A DNA stretch of 64,000 nucleotides, from the NCBI GenBank assembly GCA_047601445.1, contig JASGJH010000001.1:4064001-4128000 (forward strand). The letters are read 5' to 3'. This DNA comes from Myxococcales bacterium (lineage in GTDB: Bacteria; Myxococcota_A; Polyangia; Polyangiales; DASUME01). Position numbers: made by a program. This document shows, piece after piece, positions 33,001-45,000 of the stretch. How positions within the stretch are numbered: position 1 is the stretch's first letter; every line of letters begins with the position of its first letter.

Positions 33001-36000
33001 TCCAGCTGCACCGTACCAGCGCGGAACAGGCGCACACCGAGCACGATGATAAAGGCGAGACCTCCCAGCTTGAGCAGCGCGAATAGCAGCGGGAACGCCT
33101 GCGAAAGCGAGGCAGCCCCTGCCACCGCGAGACTCGTCCAGAGCAAGTTCGAGGCGCAGATGCCGAGCGCGGGCAGCATGGCGGGCCAGAAGCCGTAGCG
33201 AATGGAACAGGTCACCACCAACATCACGGCCGGGCCGGGTGTGAGTCCGCCGGCAAGGAAGAGCAACATGAGGGCGATCCACGCCGCGAGTTCCATGGCG
33301 CCAAGGATGACGTGAAACGAAGCGAGAGCACGAGGGCGGCCGCCCAGGCCGGGGTGAGTACGGAATAGCCAGCATCCCTGGGCCCGTTCGCGGAGCCGTG
33401 GTCCAGCACTCCTCCTCCCATCACGGCCCGCTGCCCAAGTACGCCCGGCACAGACGCGGCATGCTCTGCGTGCTCGGCTGCCTGCTCGTTGGCGCCTGCT
33501 CCGATGAGCCCTGCCTCCCCCAGAAGGTCTACGCAGAGGACGACTCCTTTCCCGCCGGAGGAGGGGCGACCACGAAAGAAATGGCGGAACGCCTGGCCCA
33601 AGAACAGGCACTGCCCATCACCTGGGGCGGCGAAGAGCATGGGCTCGATTTCCCACCCTTGCCGATCCAGGGCGACGACGAACTGCTGATGCAAGTTACA
33701 CTCGAGAGTGACCTGACCCAGACGTTCTACGAAGGTCACTCCGACAACGGGGAGGACCATCCGCCTCAGCCCGTCAAAGGCAACTGCTACGCGCACGAAC
33801 CCGAGGCCCACGTGCATGTACACGTGCGAACCCGAAGCGGGATACTCGAGGGGTCGTTCGAAGCGAAGCTCGTCGTGGCGACTGAGCTGGAGCAGATGCT
33901 CTTTTTCGAGCGCACCGGACTGGAAACACCCGACGCGCTAGCGAACTACGCTGCCGCGCTCGGCTTCGACCGTCATCAGGTTCACCTGGGCCTGGCTCTC
34001 TACTACGACTTTCGAGGAAGACTTTCGTACGCTCGCGGGTTCCTCGTCATCGATGCCGAGAACGATCCGAGTCGCGACGTCTTCTTTGGTGCGTGCGGAG
34101 ATCAGCCTGGATTGGGTTGGGATGCGGACGCAGGCCTGCAACCCGACCCGCTCGATTGTCCGCCGATCCTGGCCTCGTGCATGAACCCCAAGGCGAGCGG
34201 GCTCGACAGCTGGGGCTCCTTCCTTGCCTGCCTCAACAAGCCTAATTGCGTGACGTGCCCAACTTCGTCGCCCGTGGACGGGGATCCTCAAAAGGCGGTC
34301 TTTGCCGCGTTCGATGGGCCTTGCCGCTGTACTCAGCTGGACATGCCGTGAGGCTACGAGAGGGGCGCCAGTTCCGAGACGCTCTCGCCCCGAGACTTCC
34401 TGCTTCGCCTCCGTAGCGCGTCGGCGCCGCTCCATGCACAGACACCGTGGGAGCTAGTGGAGGGAGTCGCACCACTGTCCCCCGTACCCGAATCCGAGCC
34501 GTCGCCGATGCTGATGCACACTGCTTGGTCGCGCATGCCTGCATCGTCCTGCTCGTCGGCGCAGCCACAAAACACCTTGGCCGCATACTCGCGATCGAGC
34601 TCTCGAGTGTCGACGTAAATGTCGGCCGGATCCTCGGCCAAGTAGTGGCACAGTGGCGTCGTAGTGTCCCTCGTCTCGGCCCAAGCGCACGTGCCGCTCC
34701 GCGAACTCGGCGCAGAGCTCGCAACGGTTACTTCCCTGAAGGTCCTTGAGCTTCGCTAGATCGTACTCGGTCATGAGCCCGCACCAATCGGCCGCGTGCG
34801 CCCGATGGTAGGCTCGGGCGATCCAGGTCGAACGATCGCGTTCAAGCGACCCTGCTCCGCCCTCCTCAGACACGCGAGAGTCCGTGCTTCGACCACCGCG
34901 TGTGTCGCCAACAACCACCAAGGTTGATCTCGGCCGCGACAGAGGCTCGCGGAGCGCTGCGCTTCAGCGCATCGAGCACGCGCAAAGGAAACACCGACAT
35001 CTTGCACTCACCCCTCGCTTGCGATTCGCGCTGCACTCAGAGTTCGAACGCGCACAAGCGGGTTAACCTCCGCACTCGCAGAGAAGATGCGTGATAGGAG
35101 ATGCTTGTACGACGGAGCTCTCCCCCGAGTGTCCGTCTGCAGAGAGGAGGTCTCTCATGAAGTACGACCACGTTGGTTGATCGTAGCCAATCCTCCATTT
35201 CTTGGTTTCAACAAGGAGCAATCAAAATGAAGTACAGCAATCAAAGCGGTGCTGTGACGAGCGAAGAGGATCTCTTGCTTTCGGATGAGGAGCTCGGCAG
35301 CGTGCATGGTGGACTCTCGACTCCCCCCAGGATTCCGATCCCGCCGCACTTTCCGCCGATCATTCGCCCACCGGTGACCTTCAACCCCGGCTTCTTCGCA
35401 TGAGTCGGTGCAGGGGCGAGTTTCGGCTCGCGAGCGAAATTCGTCCCTGCGCTGCTCCCAACGCGGTCGTCGCGAATATGCCTACGAGAAGAGAGGAGAT
35501 TGAGCCGATGCCCCCCGATCCTGTCTACAACCCGTTGGACGCAGACACCCTGGAGAACCCGTTTCCGATCTATGACTATCTGCGATCCAACGCGCCGGTT
35601 TATTGGCACGAGCAGATGCAGTCATGGGTACTCACCCGATACGCGGACTGCCGGAACGTACTCCTGGACCACAAGCTCTTCGCACGCGACGAACGGCGTG
35701 TGGGTGAGTCGATCCCAGACGATCGCCTGAGCGTGCAACAGCTGGATCCCCCGGAAGTCATCCCTTTACGCCGCTTGTTCTTTCAGGCGTTCAAGGCGGT
35801 CGACCTCGAGCAGATTGCAAGGCGCGCACGCGGCCAGATCAGGGGGCTGCTCGATGCCCATGGCAAGAGGCCGATCTTCGATCTCATGGCAGACGTCGCT
35901 TCACCCGTGGCGGAGTCGCTGACTTGCGAATTCTTCGGTTCACCCACCCCACCGGCGCCGGGAAAGTTCATGCAGATTGCCCATGGCATCGCTCTCGGAA

Positions 36001-42000: not shown

Positions 42001-45000
42001 CCAGACTGCCTCGCGCATGGCATCTCCCAAGAACAGACCTCCATGCCGATGATCGTGCGGACTTCCGTGGTCGGCCAGCGACGTCGTCCCGATGCCTTTG
42101 ATCTGCAGCGATCCGAGCGCGGCTGCGCGGCCGCTCCCACGGTTGGCCCCGATGCCCTCACCACCGTATCGATCGGCATAAAAAGCCCGGGCTTCACCGA
42201 TGAACATGCCAGGCTCATCCTGGTCGTCCGGGATCCGATACGCGAAAGCTTCGAGGAATATGTGCTCGAGCTCAGGTGTGATGCCGTCGCTAGGCAACCC
42301 GAGCTCGAGGTCGCGCAACAGAGACCAGTTCACCCACAGCAGCCTCGCGTCGCGCATTCTTCGGGCGAGCACCGGCACGAACGCCTCCGGTGGTGGTGCC
42401 ACCGGCGCGTTGTCCATGAGCCGAGCGAGCCCGGCTCGGAGCCTGTCGTAGGGGGAAACGGACACGCCAATAGAGGCATGAAGCGATGTTGCGTCGCGAG
42501 CAATCCTCATCACCCCGCACAACAGTACCGACGCGAACCTTCAGGCGGCTCTGCTCACCCGGTTGCAAAGCGATCGAGCGCGCTCATCAGGGCCAATCGC
42601 TTGCTGTTGCTGCGCAGGTGCCCGGCGTCGTCCACCGCGATGAGCTCCGCCCCCGCCCATGCTCGCGCAAGGGCCCAGGCGGTGTCGATTGGACAACTCA
42701 TGTCTCGTCTTCCGTGGATCACCACCCCGGGGATTCCATCGAGCCGCGCCGCGTTCTGGATCAGAGCGCCTTCTTCCAACCAACCGCCATGCCGAAGGTA
42801 GTGGGTACAAATGCGCACGAAGGCCAGCATGTCCTCGACCGGCATCTCAGAGCTCGAGGCCGCGCCGGCACCAGTCTCGAGTGAGAGCACCGCGTCCTCC
42901 CATTTGCACCACCCCCTGGCGGCCGCCACCCTGACGGCCTCCTCAGGGTGATCCATGCGCTGGGCGTAAGCCTCGATCAGGTCCGCCCCACGCGCGGTGT
43001 TGGGTAAGGGACCTCGGAATTGTTCCCATGCTTCCGGGAAGAAACGAGCAGCCCCTGCGTACAGCCACTCGGCCTCACGACGAGTCCACGTAGTCACATT
43101 GCTGAGCACGAGCTCAGAAACCGACTCGCGATGGCGATGCGCATAGGCCAGCGCGAGCGCGACACCCCACGAGGCGCCGGAGACCAACCAACGCTCGATG
43201 CCGAGGTGACGCCGGAGGGATTCCATGTCCGCGATGAGGTGATCCGTCGTGTTGCATGACATGTCCGTGGCGAGGTCACTGGCGGAGGGGATCGACCTTC
43301 CGCAGCCCCGTTGGTCGAACAGAACCACCCTATACTGCTCCGGGTCGAACGCGCGCGCCATGTTGGGAGCGCAGCCTTGCCCGGGACCGCCGTGCAGCAC
43401 CACAGCGGGCTTTCCGTGGGGTACGCCGAAGACCTGCCACGCGATGCGGTTTTCGGAGCTGACCTCCAGGTGTCCTTCTTGGATGGGTCCTCGCAGCGGA
43501 TACAAGTCGACCATGGAGACCTCGCATTCGTTGACACCGGATTTTCGCCAAACGCAACCGACCCCGACCGTCTACCCTGAAGACGGGCCCGTGTCTCGTG
43601 GAGGAACGGCCTGCGCGACGAGCACGTGAACGCCGGAGCGGGTGGTCAACACTCGCTCGATCACGAAGCCGGCTGCAACGAGCAAGGCGCGGTTCTCGTC
43701 GAGCGTGCGATCCCGAGCCCCGAACAACACGAGCATCGTCAGGTCTCGAATCGACGATGGAAGTCCGCCCTCGCGCTCCAGGTCGAGCGAGCGCTCGATG
43801 AGCAAGAGGCGCCCACCTCCCGTGATGGCGCGCCGCACGTTGCCAAGGATTTGCAAGGCCTCTTCGTCGCGCCAGTTGTGAATCACTGCCTTGAGCAAAT
43901 AGAGTTCTGCTCCAGCAGGAACCTCCCGCAACAGGTCGCCGGCGAGCGCTGTGCCTCGCCCGCTCACTCCTCGCTCCTGAAGAGTATGCCTGACTTGTTC
44001 GACCACGGCCGCCTGCTCGACCGCGATTCCTTGCAACTCCGGGTGTCCCTTCAGTACCTCGGCGAGCAGGGTTCCGTCACCCGCTCCCAGGTCGACGACC
44101 AGGCCTCGCTCGGGGAACTCGTACAGGGCTTCGAACTCGTTCCAGAAATGGGAGCTGTTGAAGCGCATCGTGCGCGCGAAGGAACGCGCCAGCTCGGGGG
44201 TTTCGCTCATGTAGGTCCACAGCCCCCGCCCATGCACGTGCTCGAAAGCCGAGCGACCGGTACGCAACGCGTAGCTCAAGCAGGCCCAGGCGTCGTAGTA
44301 TTCGGTTCCAGACATTCGAGCGTGACCATGAAGCAGACCCGCCTCGTGGTGCAGCAGCTTGCAGAGCGCGGTACCGTGAACCAGACCGTCGACGCGCTGT
44401 ACGAGCTCGAGTCCCTCAAGCGCATCCAAGTACCTGCGCAGTTCGTTCGTGCCGATACCGGTCAGCTCCGCGAGAGTGCGTTCGGTCTGCGGCCCCTCGG
44501 CCAGAAAGTCCGGGATGCGGAGCGTCACCGCCGAGGCCACGAGCTGCGTAACGATGTACCCACCCAACAGCTTCCCGAGCCGCTCGCCTTCCGGCCTGGC
44601 TTCGTTCTGGAGCATTCGGAACCTCCTCAACTGCTTGCCTCAAGTCGTACTCGAGTGCGAGGCCCATGGCGACGAGGTTAACCCCGCGTGGCGCAAGATG
44701 ACGGCGGTCCAGCCCGCCCAACCGCCGATGGTCCCTATCCGCCATAGCGATGGCGTTCAAGCGCCCCGCCAACGCCCCATGAGACAAGCCAGAGTGCGTG
44801 CTTCGACCACCGCGTGTGGGGAAGACGCTTGGCTTCTCTTGCAACGAGGTTGGTGATGAGCGAGCACTTGCTTGGTGCGGCCGCGGCGTGCGGCTGTTTG
44901 GTAATGTGGAATCTGCTGGGTGGCTGCGGATCGGAAGACAGCACGTCTGCACGGAGCGCGGACACGCCGAGCGCGCAGGATGCGGGTGAAGGCGACGACT

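What a model noticed while it worked through the whole genome (the two positions that open the first line are those of the whole stretch)
35227..44615. Pheganomycin-type ribosome-plus-ligase peptide cluster with a proline-rich precursor in a myxobacterium
A 58-codon gene (g03471) encodes a peptide with an acidic leader ending in Gly-Gly and a 29-residue proline-rich core (LSTPPRIPIPPHFPPIIRPPVTFNPGFFA), followed in one direction by a RufO-like P450 (g03472), an amino-acid amidinotransferase (g03473) and a PGM1-type ATP-grasp peptide ligase (g03474), and flanked by a 1,076-aa protein ending in an L-amino-acid-ligase domain, a proline iminopeptidase and an O-methyltransferase (g03475-77). I read it as a hybrid pathway in which a guanidino (N-amidino) amino acid is made and ligated onto the N-terminus of the ribosomally made, leader-trimmed proline-rich peptide, giving a capped PrAMP-like antibiotic that may plug the ribosome exit tunnel. 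New wo [...]
Evidence so far: Sequence of g03471. swissprot.tsv: g03473 58.4% identical over 387 aa to the characterised arginine amidinotransferase of Streptomyces mobaraensis and 56% to the valine amidinotransferase of Salinispora; g03472 35% to tyrosine 3-nitrase RufO; g03475 aa 702-1031 25% to RizA; g03476 45% to proline iminopeptidase; g03477 34% to PhzM. phmmer vs PDB: g03474 aa 1-421 match PGM1 (3wvq) residues 1-420, E 2e-78; g03475 aa 696-1032 match an L-amino acid ligase (4wd3), E 1e-19. relatives.tsv: PreAtp-grasp family of g03474 seen in 8 of 592 Polyangiales and 0 of 9 genus genomes. Genes g03471-74 are co-directional with gaps of -23 to 104 nt. G+C 0.59-0.63 against 0.66.
(Added by a program. 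Inside this text positions count along the whole contig: contig position 4,064,001 is position 1 of the stretch shown here. "Call 12" and the like, gene names such as g00115 and contig names such as C1 are that model's own, and its searches are not shown. The text may have been shortened before it was handed on; [...] marks where a part breaks off. The agent that wrote the report below was given it as the finding of a first reader that could run no searches.)

Follow-up and report, generated by a model that had tools for sequence, protein, structure and literature searches.

The report
Biarylitide–ligase hybrid peptide gene cluster

Summary
It is the only ATG-x-Tyr-Asp-His site in the 64-kb window (expected 0.01).

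I collected 98 loci that encode relatives of the PGM1-type ligase. Of these, 73 also carry a RufO/P450Blt-like P450. Of those 73, 68 carry a mini-gene M-x-Y-[D/N]-H; none of the 25 loci without such a P450 does. This is the hybrid biarylitide/Pgm1 cluster type described by genome mining in 2026, with no product reported in the papers I searched.

The P450 keeps the I-helix alcohol residue of cross-linkers, and the genome has no nitric oxide synthase.

The 58-aa ORF carries a textbook double-glycine leader, the only strict match in the 9.5-Mb genome. It has no homologue anywhere I searched, and its role is open.

The 1,076-aa protein is a SelO-like domain fused to an L-amino-acid ligase. That fusion was seen in none of the 98 loci.

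Verdict: a horizontally acquired new variant of a known kind. The ribosome-plus-ligase logic holds, but the proposed proline-rich substrate and ribosome target are unsupported.

The parts
35157..35180 (+). bytA-like mini-gene: ATG AAG TAC GAC CAC GTT GGT TGA = MKYDHVG. GGAGG lies at 35146-35150, 6 nt before the ATG. An in-frame GTG at 35091 would give a 29-aa form.
   Evidence: Sequence read. It is the only ATGNNNTAYGAYCAY site in the window, against 0.01 expected. It is the only aromatic-x-aromatic mini-ORF in 34900-35520. The 29-aa alternative is listed. The same motif is present in 68 of 73 related P450-bearing loci and in 0 of 25 loci without the P450.
35227..35403 (+). 58-aa orphan ORF with a double-glycine leader (LSDEELGSVHGG) and a 29-residue proline-rich tail; AAGGAG lies at 35213-35218
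   Evidence: The strict leader motif occurs once in 19.0 million six-frame positions of the genome, and that one match is this ORF. G+C by codon position is 0.58/0.49/0.69, shaped like the neighbouring genes. Only itself was found among 5.8 billion protein clusters, and nothing similar in the 98 loci.
35410..35450 (+). Stem-loop between the two small ORFs and the P450 gene (16-nt arms, 9-nt loop, no U-tract)
   Evidence: The 115-nt stretch folds at -49.4 kcal/mol, z = -2.55, and 3 of 200 shuffles fold as well. It is not called a terminator by the scan.
35508..36716 (+). Cytochrome P450 of the BytO/P450Blt/RufO group, 402 aa from ATG 35508 (frame open from 35400)
   Evidence: PDB: 22yx (NsRufO) 3.8e-79; RufO and P450Blt chains about 1e-67. 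The identities of these entries come from PMC13651536. The I-helix reads NASYST, so the alcohol residue Thr is kept. The closest locus is L120, 55 % identical, with the mini-gene MHYNHL.
36694..37830 (+). Amidinotransferase, 378 aa
   Evidence: PDB StrB1 9e-46, AGAT 1e-43, SxtG 2.5e-41. It is 61-83 % identical to the amidinotransferases found in 70 of 73 P450-bearing loci.
37852..39162 (+). PGM1-family ATP-grasp peptide ligase, 436 aa
   Evidence: Pfam PreAtp-grasp 2e-24. PGM1 3wvq matches full length at 2e-78. The closest relatives, 55-60 % identical, are all metagenomic.
39187..42417 (-). 1,076-aa fusion protein. The N-terminal ~600 residues form a SelO/YdiU-like domain; the C-terminal ~410 residues (39187-40422) form an L-amino-acid-ligase ATP-grasp domain.
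   Evidence: LAL_C2 and ATP-grasp_4; 4wd3 1.1e-19. N-domain: a profile of 40 homologues against PDB SelO/YdiU gives 4e-8. 21 of 40 homologues hit Pfam SelO. The model has pLDDT 86.4. Foldseek gives 6eac at 1e-13. No such domain is found in the 98 loci.
42555..43514 (-). S33 prolyl-aminopeptidase-family hydrolase, 319 aa
   Evidence: TIGR01249 scores 294.4 bits against a cut-off of 259.75. Pfam Abhydrolase_1 and Hydrolase_4. Homologues 41-43 % identical sit in L083, L091 and L093.
43572..44630 (-). SAM-dependent O-methyltransferase, 352 aa from TTG
   Evidence: Methyltransf_2 1e-33 plus the dimerisation domain. Homologues 48-50 % identical sit in L083, L093 and L120.

Best explanation
This is a horizontally acquired member of the hybrid biarylitide/Pgm1-ligase clusters. 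Only the genes, motifs and co-occurrences are observed here; every chemical step below is inferred.

Proposed pathway:
1. The 7-codon gene at 35157-35180 is translated to MKYDHVG.
2. The P450, a relative of BytO, P450Blt and RufO, cross-links Tyr3 to His5. This is inferred from the family, from the retained I-helix alcohol residue and from the absence of a nitric oxide synthase.
3. The S33 aminopeptidase trims the two-residue Met-Lys leader. This is inferred by analogy with RufB.
4. The amidinotransferase makes an N-amidino (guanidino) acid, using arginine as donor (inferred).
5. The PGM1-type ligase activates that acid's carboxylate as an acyl phosphate and joins it to the freed amine of the cross-linked peptide. 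This is inferred from PGM1 and KtmD.
6. The L-amino-acid-ligase domain adds a further residue, the O-methyltransferase methylates, and the fused SelO-like domain may nucleotidylate an intermediate. These steps are speculative.

The 58-aa double-glycine peptide gene between the mini-gene and the P450 gene is probably real, but its connection to the pathway is unknown.
For: The mini-gene is the only ATG-x-Tyr-Asp-His site in the window, on either strand. The expectation is 0.01, and 1 of 100 shuffles had a hit. It lies on the operon strand, upstream of the P450 gene, with GGAGG 6 nt before the ATG.

Across 98 loci encoding relatives of the ligase (80, 18):
- 73 hold a P450 at least 35 % identical to this one.
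- 68 of those 73 hold an ATG-started M-x-Y-[D/N]-H mini-ORF with 0-3 extra residues.
- 70 of those 73 hold the amidinotransferase.
- 0 of the 25 loci without such a P450 has the mini-ORF.

The five P450-bearing loci without an ATG mini-ORF are accounted for as follows. One has a GTG-started MFYDH. Three have the P450 at the edge of the locus. L113 carries MCYDH at the head of an 85-aa ORF.

The closest fetched cluster is L120. Its P450 is 55 % identical, amidinotransferase 79 %, ligase 49 %, L-amino-acid ligase 49 % and O-methyltransferase 50 %. It has MHYNHL with a GGAGG site about 90 nt before its P450 gene.

The literature describes this kind. Pgm1 homologues go with Asp at position 4 of the precursor in 47 clusters (PMC13417212, section 8). 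YDH is one of the three commonest motifs, 94 of 435 pairs (PMC12150307).

The best PDB matches are NsRufO, RufO and P450Blt. The I-helix alcohol residue, Ser239 in P450Blt and Val in RufO (PMC13651536), is Thr here and in all 71 aligned P450s. The genome, 98.7 % complete, has no NO synthase.

Homologues of the aminopeptidase, O-methyltransferase and L-amino-acid ligase sit in six related clusters. RufB is the precedent for an aminopeptidase acting on such peptides.

In the tree, the ligase lies within the 98-row P450-associated clade (support 100), apart from 18 ligases of clusters without a BytO-like P450.
Against: The mini-gene ends 327 nt before the likely P450 start, and another ORF lies in between. 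In most loci the mini-gene starts 95-160 nt upstream of the P450 homology.

The precursor carries two residues after His5. The myxarylin P450 did not modify a substrate extended by one residue at the C-terminus (PMC12951456).

The Arg that clamps the substrate's terminal carboxylate in NsRufO (R231) is Asp here, and His235 is Asn. This could fit an extended substrate or could mean a different substrate. The same loss of Arg is seen in 8 other loci, 6 of which have plain 5-residue precursors.

There are no expression data and no product. Which acid is amidinated, where the ligases act and what the SelO-like domain does are all unknown. Position 4 is Asn in three related clusters, so an Asp side-chain ligation cannot be general.

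The supplementary table of PMC13417212 could not be read, so I cannot say whether this cluster is already listed there.
Confidence: 0.75

Rival explanations
1. The 58-aa peptide is the ribosomal substrate, alone or alongside the mini-peptide. A C39-domain transporter cuts it after Gly-Gly, and the PGM1-type ligase caps its N-terminus with an N-amidino acid, giving a capped proline-rich antibiotic.
For: The ORF has a good ribosome-binding site and a canonical double-glycine leader, LSDEELGSVHGG. That is the only strict match in the genome's 19.0 million six-frame positions. Its G+C by codon position looks coding. It lies in the operon, before a strong hairpin that separates the small ORFs from the enzyme genes. 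Two C39-domain transporter genes exist elsewhere in the genome. PGM1 itself ligates onto ribosomal peptides (PMC13417212).
Against: No homologue was found in 5.8 billion protein clusters. None was found in the 98 related loci: no tblastn hit and no double-glycine small ORF in 3.5 million six-frame positions. The ligase family's constant partner is the mini-gene. There is no C39 transporter in the cluster. The proline iminopeptidase is explained without this peptide.
Confidence: 0.12
2. The 58-aa ORF encodes an independent, unmodified bacteriocin-like peptide with a double-glycine leader. It is merely co-transcribed with the cluster and is exported by one of the distant C39 transporters.
For: It has the leader motif and a ribosome-binding site. 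It is absent from all related clusters. C39 transporters are encoded at genome positions 4.87 and 8.28 Mb. The atlas look-alikes include lantibiotic and ComC precursors, but only at a score of 0.84, which is a lead and not evidence.
Against: It sits between a precursor gene and that precursor's P450 gene, an odd place for an unrelated gene. No immunity or transporter gene lies beside it. No relatives are known.
Confidence: 0.3
3. The 58-aa ORF is not expressed as a peptide. It is a chance frame, or a decayed remnant, in a long leader region between the mini-gene and the P450 gene.
For: It is an orphan. An 80-codon open frame in 59 % G+C DNA is not rare in itself (my estimate, not a tool result). 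It shares its first nine bases, ATGAAGTAC, with the mini-gene, which could reflect a decayed duplicate.
Against: A strict double-glycine leader at the right distance from a start codon with AAGGAG is very unlikely by chance: there is one strict match in the whole genome, and it is here. The codon-position G+C has a coding shape.
Confidence: 0.25
4. The P450 is a RufO-type nitrating enzyme, and the cluster supplies 3-nitrotyrosine or a nitrated peptide.
For: The best PDB match is the nitrating homologue NsRufO, 3.8e-79.
Against: The genome has no NO synthase; the control genomes in the same search did respond. The I-helix position that is Val in RufO is Thr here. No NRPS lies nearby.
Confidence: 0.02
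5. The pathway is purely non-ribosomal and ketomemicin-like. The amidinotransferase and the two ATP-grasp ligases build a small guanidino pseudopeptide, and both small ORFs are irrelevant.
For: Ketomemicin clusters pair a PGM1-type ligase (KtmD) with an amidinotransferase (KtmE) and use no ribosomal peptide (PMC11943689). L033 shows the amidinotransferase and ligase next to a LysE exporter with no P450 in the part of the contig that is held.
Against: The aldolase, PLP acyltransferase, dehydratase and dehydrogenase of ktm clusters are not here. The BytO-type P450 and the mini-gene are tightly associated with this ligase clade. L033 is cut about 520 nt upstream of its amidinotransferase, and its close relative L113 does have a P450 two genes upstream.
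Confidence: 0.04

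Closest known systems
Hybrid biarylitide/Pgm1-ligase gene clusters with the YDH motif. They are described only by genome mining: 47 clusters in PMC13417212, and YDH in 94 of 435 P450/precursor pairs in PMC12150307.
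   Same: BytO-type P450, a mini-gene with Tyr3, Asp4 and His5, a Pgm1-type ligase, an amidinotransferase, and usually a second ATP-grasp ligase.
   Different: No relative was found in 400 order and 400 phylum genomes. The precursor has two extra C-terminal residues. A 58-aa double-glycine peptide gene is inserted between the mini-gene and the P450 gene. The L-amino-acid ligase is fused to a SelO-like domain. The P450 belongs to a minority subgroup (9 of 71) that lacks the carboxylate-clamping Arg. The canonical gene of about 365 aa between the ligase and the amidinotransferase is absent.
Myxarylin, a myxobacterial biarylitide (bytA, bytO, bytZ; PMC8708641 from the search listing, PMC12951456 from passages)
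   Same: A P450 cross-links Tyr3 to His5 of a mini-peptide. The leader is removed by a serine peptidase, and a methyltransferase finishes the product.
   Different: Myxarylin clusters have no ligases and no amidinotransferase. Its P450 rejected a C-terminal extension. Its methyltransferase is an N-methylase, and its peptidase is a prolyl oligopeptidase encoded elsewhere.
Pheganomycin (PGM1 with the ribosomal precursor PGM2; Noike et al. 2015, as cited in PMC13417212)
   Same: A PGM1-family ligase (full-length match, 2e-78), a guanidino acid and a ribosomal peptide are combined.
   Different: No genes for a phenylglycine-type guanidino acid lie nearby. The ligase lies in a different clade from the ligases of clusters without a BytO-type P450. 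The ribosomal partner here is most likely a P450-cross-linked mini-peptide.
Ketomemicins (ktmA-F; PMC11943689)
   Same: An amidinotransferase paired with a PGM1-type ligase.
   Different: Ketomemicin synthesis uses no ribosomal peptide and no P450, and the pseudodipeptide-forming genes ktmA, B, C and F are absent here.
Rufomycin 3-nitrotyrosine branch (bytA-like gene, RufN, RufO, RufB; PMC13651536, PMC12002111)
   Same: The P450 family is the same, the substrate is a ribosomal pentapeptide, and a serine aminopeptidase processes it.
   Different: There is no NO synthase, the I-helix residue is Thr rather than Val, and there is no NRPS.

Membership tests
Biarylitide RiPP system (BytA/BytO) | A P450 of the BytO/P450Blt/RufO group | tested here: met
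   PDB 22yx 3.8e-79; RufO and P450Blt chains about 1e-67, aligned over nearly the full length. The entries are identified in PMC13651536.
Biarylitide RiPP system (BytA/BytO) | A mini-gene of 5-8 codons with aromatic residues at positions 3 and 5, close to the P450 gene (the criterion used in PMC13417212) | tested here: met
   MKYDHVG at 35157-35180. It is the only such site in the window, against 0.01 expected. It ends 327 nt before the P450 start, which is further than usual.
Biarylitide RiPP system (BytA/BytO) | A cross-linking rather than nitrating active site: the I-helix alcohol residue is kept and no NO synthase partner is present | tested here: met
   Thr at the position of P450Blt Ser239. 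No PF02898 match in the genome.
Biarylitide RiPP system (BytA/BytO) | A Tyr-His cross-linked product | not testable with these tools
   This needs enzyme assays or metabolite analysis.
Hybrid biarylitide/Pgm1 clusters | A Pgm1-type ligase in the same cluster, and Asp at position 4 of the precursor | tested here: met
   Ligase at 37852-39162. Asp4 in MKYDHVG. The association is 68 of 73 against 0 of 25 loci.
Hybrid biarylitide/Pgm1 clusters | A co-encoded amidinotransferase | tested here: met
   Gene at 36694-37830. Present in 70 of 73 P450-bearing loci.
Pheganomycin-type guanidinotide | A PGM1-family peptide ligase | tested here: met
   3wvq 2e-78, full length. However, the ligase lies in a clade separate from the ligases of clusters without a BytO-type P450. 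PGM1 itself was not in that tree.
Pheganomycin-type guanidinotide | A longer ribosomal precursor whose core peptide is the ligase's amine substrate | tested here: inconclusive
   The 58-aa ORF exists, but it is an orphan and is absent from all 98 related loci. Nothing links it to the ligase.
Pheganomycin-type guanidinotide | Genes for the non-proteinogenic phenylglycine-type guanidino acid. That these belong to the pheganomycin cluster is my recollection, not a tool result. | tested here: not met
   No such families appear among the Pfam hits of the cluster or its flanks.
Double-glycine-leader peptides (class II bacteriocin or RiPP precursors) | The leader consensus L-S-x-x-E-L-x-x-[IVLM]-x-G-G. 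This consensus is recalled from the field's general knowledge. | tested here: met
   LSDEELGSVHGG is the only strict match in the genome.
Double-glycine-leader peptides (class II bacteriocin or RiPP precursors) | A cognate C39-peptidase ABC transporter encoded next to the peptide gene | tested here: not met
   There is none in the cluster or its flanks. Two are encoded far away in the genome.
SelO/YdiU protein adenylyltransferases | The SelO fold | tested here: met
   Profile against PDB, 4e-8. Model with pLDDT 86.4. Foldseek 6eac 1e-13, target TM-score 0.62.
SelO/YdiU protein adenylyltransferases | The catalytic motif HG-x-x-N-T-D-N with its Asp. The role of that Asp is recalled, not tested here. 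| tested here: not met
   The motif reads HGALSSSN here and HGATSxSN in the family consensus: Ser replaces the Asp. The following Asn and the next Asp are invariant. The activity may therefore differ from SelO's.

The most novel reading that the evidence does not exclude
Two ribosomal peptides are joined. The P450-cross-linked, amidino-modified mini-peptide, which ends in Val-Gly, is ligated by one of the two ATP-grasp ligases onto the N-terminus of the leader-cleaved proline-rich 29-mer. The product would be a biaryl-capped proline-rich peptide. The cluster-specific SelO-like domain would act on this longer peptide. This reading would account for the three features unique to this cluster: the C-terminally extended mini-precursor, the inserted double-glycine peptide gene, and the SelO-ligase fusion.
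Probability: 0.06. Interest if true: 0.85.

Novelty: new variant of a known kind. Interest (0 to 1): 0.5.

Why it matters
Hybrid biarylitide/Pgm1 clusters are common in actinomycetes, but I found no reported product for them. The chemistry that links a P450-cross-linked mini-peptide to guanidino-acid ligation is therefore still open.

This copy offers a compact, complete version in a 9.5-Mb genome assembled as a single contig, with informative departures from the norm. Its precursor is extended beyond His5, which the characterised myxarylin P450 did not accept. Its P450 lacks the Arg that clamps the substrate's carboxylate. Its ligase is fused to a SelO-like domain. And a second, leader-bearing peptide gene sits inside the operon.

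Working out its product would show what the ligases do in this family, and whether a RiPP pathway can use two ribosomal peptides.

The case also carries a practical lesson for genome scans. Mini-genes of 5-8 codons decide how such clusters are read, and gene callers do not see them.

Tried and rejected
- Complex prediction of the ligase, the L-amino-acid-ligase domain and the 58-aa peptide returned 'no answer' (score 0.00, mark 0.32, after queue-full replies). It counts neither for nor against binding.
- No sequencing run, RNA or DNA, was listed for 35000-37000 (none was listed). Expression therefore could not be examined.
- The promoter and terminator scan of 34400-35700 found nothing.
- The atlas look-up of the 58-aa ORF gave only sub-threshold leads at 0.84.
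- Pfam and NCBIfam gave nothing for the N-terminal 665 residues of the large protein, even at E <= 10. A profile and a fold search were needed to place it.
- The DNA comparison with the 9 genomes of the genus was too distant (65-75 % identity on a few genes) to set the borders of the island.
- The supplementary table of PMC13417212 could not be read.
- The contigs of the closest ligase and P450 relatives come from Logan or ENA and could not be fetched.
- I rejected a bytA-type gene in the 104-nt gap right before the P450 gene: none is there.
- I rejected a functional link between the proline-rich peptide and the prolyl aminopeptidase, because homologous aminopeptidases sit in clusters whose precursors contain no proline.
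- The LysE exporter at 32682-33611 is probably not part of the cluster. A lipoprotein-like ORF lies between them, and the LysE next to the amidinotransferase and ligase in L033 is not detectably similar to it.
- The two look-ups of earlier findings returned nothing.

Full report
**What is there**

The seven genes of the finding are present.
- On the plus strand lie a 58-aa ORF (35227-35403), a P450 (frame open from 35400, likely start ATG 35508), an amidinotransferase (36694-37830) and a PGM1-like ATP-grasp ligase (37852-39162).
- Converging on them from the minus strand are an O-methyltransferase (44630-43572), a prolyl-aminopeptidase-family hydrolase (43514-42555) and a 1,076-aa protein (42417-39187).
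- The flanks hold a hybrid histidine kinase, a LysE exporter, a lipoprotein-like ORF, a GDSL lipase and AraC regulators. They hold no ABC transporter or C39 peptidase.

**The overlooked gene**

The P450's best solved relatives are 22YX, then 8SPC, 8SPP, 9EBY and 8U2M. Passages of PMC13651536 identify these as NsRufO, RufO and the biarylitide cross-linker P450Blt. All of them act on a ribosomal pentapeptide encoded by an 18-bp bytA-type gene.

I therefore looked for such a gene. At 35157-35180 the plus strand reads ATG AAG TAC GAC CAC GTT GGT TGA, which is MKYDHVG, with GGAGG 6 nt before the ATG.
- The pattern ATG-NNN-TAY-GAY-CAY occurs once in the 64-kb window on either strand. The expectation is 0.01, and 1 of 100 shuffles had a hit.
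- It is the only aromatic-x-aromatic mini-ORF in 34900-35520.
- An in-frame GTG at 35091 would give a 29-aa form. The ATG with its ribosome-binding site matches the layout in the related loci.

**Comparative test**

Using an alignment of the 19 closest ligases I fetched 80 loci from species genomes (135 relatives found, the best 80 kept) and 18 from metagenomes. Over these 98 loci:
- 73 hold a P450 at least 35 % identical to the window's.
- 70 of the 73 hold the amidinotransferase, and 54 hold an L-amino-acid-ligase relative.
- 68 of the 73 hold an ATG-started M-x-Y-[D/N]-H mini-ORF: MSYDH 48, MFYDH 8, MTYDH 4, MRYDH 3, and MIYDH, MVYDH, MIYNH, MMYNH and MHYNHL once each.
- None of the 25 loci without such a P450 has one.

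The five P450-bearing loci that lack an ATG mini-ORF are explained as follows. One has a GTG-started MFYDH. Three have the P450 at the edge of the locus. L113 carries MCYDH at the head of an 85-aa ORF.

This is the cluster type that PMC13417212 (section 8 read whole) reports as 47 clusters combining Pgm1 homologues with Asp at position 4. PMC12150307 counts YDH among the three commonest biarylitide motifs (passage). Neither paper gives a product, and my other searches found none.

**Closest relatives**

- The ligase's nearest relatives, 55-60 % identical, are all metagenomic, plus one MAG labelled Duganella.
- In a tree of 116 ligases the window sits in a 19-row clade with these (support 98). 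That clade lies inside a 98-row clade of P450-associated ligases (support 100), apart from 18 ligases of clusters that lack a BytO-type P450 (quick method, midpoint root).
- The most similar cluster I could read is L120. It runs mini-gene MHYNHL, P450 (55 %), amidinotransferase (79 %), ligase (49 %), MFS transporter, stand-alone L-amino-acid ligase (49 %) and O-methyltransferase (50 %).
- Homologues of the aminopeptidase (41-43 %) and the O-methyltransferase (48 %) also sit in Streptomyces loci L083, L093 and L091, whose precursors are MIYNH, MMYNH and MTYDH. The minus-strand genes therefore belong to the cluster.
- Still closer P450s, 57-63 % identical, exist in metagenomes. One shares its longest-contig length with one of the closest ligases, which suggests a sister cluster I could not fetch.

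**Cross-linker or nitrase**

RufO differs from P450Blt by Val in place of the I-helix alcohol residue, and it needs an NO synthase (PMC13651536). The window's P450 has Thr at that position, as do all 71 aligned P450s. The genome, 98.7 % complete, has no NO synthase, while control genomes in the same search did respond. Cross-linking is therefore the likely reaction.

The P450s fall into two groups.
- 62 have Arg and Gln at the positions of NsRufO R231 and H235. R231 forms a salt bridge to the substrate's terminal carboxylate.
- 9, including the window, L120 and L113, have a residue other than Arg (Asp in the window) followed by Asn.
- All three precursors that run on past His5 belong to this second group: MKYDHVG, MHYNHL and the 85-aa ORF of L113. 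Six plain pentapeptides belong to it too, so the link is only suggestive.
- It matters because the myxarylin P450 did not accept a one-residue C-terminal extension (PMC12951456).

**The 58-aa ORF**

- It has no homologue among 5.8 billion protein clusters. It has no second copy in its own genome; the next hit there has E 0.4. Nothing like it appears in the 98 loci.
- Yet its leader, LSDEELGSVHGG, fits the double-glycine consensus. The strict pattern LSxxELxx[IVLM]xGG occurs once in the genome's 19.0 million six-frame positions, and that one match is here.
- Its G+C by codon position (0.58/0.49/0.69) has the shape seen in the neighbouring genes, and AAGGAG lies 8 nt before the ATG.
- A strong hairpin at 35410-35450 follows it and precedes the P450 gene.
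- Two C39-domain transporter genes exist elsewhere in the genome.

I conclude that it is probably a real peptide gene inserted into this copy of the cluster. Nothing shows that the cluster's enzymes act on it.

**The large protein**

Its last ~410 residues form an L-amino-acid-ligase ATP-grasp domain. Its first ~600 residues have no Pfam or NCBIfam match, but they belong to a family of at least 1,336 proteins.
- A profile of 40 members matches SelO/YdiU in the PDB at 4e-8.
- 21 of the 40 members hit Pfam SelO.
- A confident model (pLDDT 86.4, pTM 0.89) matches SelO/YdiU structures at E 1e-13.
- The family has Ser where SelO has the Asp of its N-T-D-N motif, so its chemistry may differ.
- No related locus has this domain. 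Among the 150 best family members, the long ones I scanned are fused to other domains, not to a ligase.

**Mechanism**

Shown here are the gene set, the mini-gene, its statistical association with this P450, ligase and amidinotransferase set, and the cross-linker-type active site.

Inferred are the following steps:
1. Tyr3-His5 cross-linking of MKYDHVG.
2. Removal of Met-Lys by the S33 aminopeptidase, with RufB as precedent.
3. Formation of an N-amidino acid.
4. Its ATP-dependent ligation to the freed amine by the PGM1-type ligase.
5. A further ligation, then methylation.

Three related clusters have Asn rather than Asp at position 4. This argues against the Asp side chain as the general ligation site.

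**Verdict**

The cluster is a new variant of a kind known from genome mining. It was found in none of the 400 order genomes (which includes the unpublished genomes G122, G313, G396 and G387) and none of the 400 phylum genomes searched. It has three features of its own: an extended precursor, an inserted double-glycine proline-rich peptide gene, and a SelO-ligase fusion.

Noticed in passing
L113:6061-6318: In a metagenomic relative (ligase 58 %, amidinotransferase 81 %), the ORF just before the P450 gene starts MCYDH. It then runs on for 85 residues into what looks like an XRE-type helix-turn-helix sequence. Either a precursor has fused to a regulator or a mini-gene has lost its stop codon.
   Followed up: partly
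window 39187-42417 (N-terminal ~600 residues); proteins P0126-P0274: There is a large family, at least 1,336 representatives, of SelO-like proteins that Pfam does not recognise. They have Ser in place of the Asp of SelO's N-T-D-N motif. Some are fused to Zeta-toxin/AAA domains, and one to HlyC acyltransferase plus erythromycin esterase domains.
   Followed up: partly
loci L034-L122 (alignment of 71 P450s): P450s associated with Pgm1-type ligases split into two groups. 62 have Arg and Gln at the NsRufO R231 and H235 positions, with the mini-gene about 100 nt upstream. 9 have a non-Arg residue and Asn; in those the mini-gene is displaced (downstream of the P450 gene in L038, L040 and L042; 1.7-10 kb away in L083, L091 and L093) or extended beyond His5.
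   Followed up: partly
L033:1-4424 and L113:7748-11127: The closest ligase and amidinotransferase pairs are preceded by an NAD-dependent epimerase/dehydratase gene that the window lacks. In L033 a LysE exporter and an AraC regulator follow. LysE and AraC genes also flank the window's cluster, but the two LysE proteins are not detectably similar.
   Followed up: partly
window 28271-29293: A lipoprotein-like ORF contains a (Gly-Asp)n run. The ~72-nt repeat that encodes it (28708-28780) has many 80-90 % identical copies across the genome and in genomes of the genus.
   Followed up: no
window 33461-34351: An unannotated ORF with a lipoprotein-type signal (…LLVGAC…) and coding-type G+C by codon position (0.70/0.47/0.74). 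It has no Pfam match and lies between the LysE gene and the cluster.
   Followed up: no
window 35157-35165 and 35227-35235: The mini-gene and the 58-aa ORF begin with the same nine bases, ATGAAGTAC (Met-Lys-Tyr). This may be a trace of a duplicated precursor gene.
   Followed up: no
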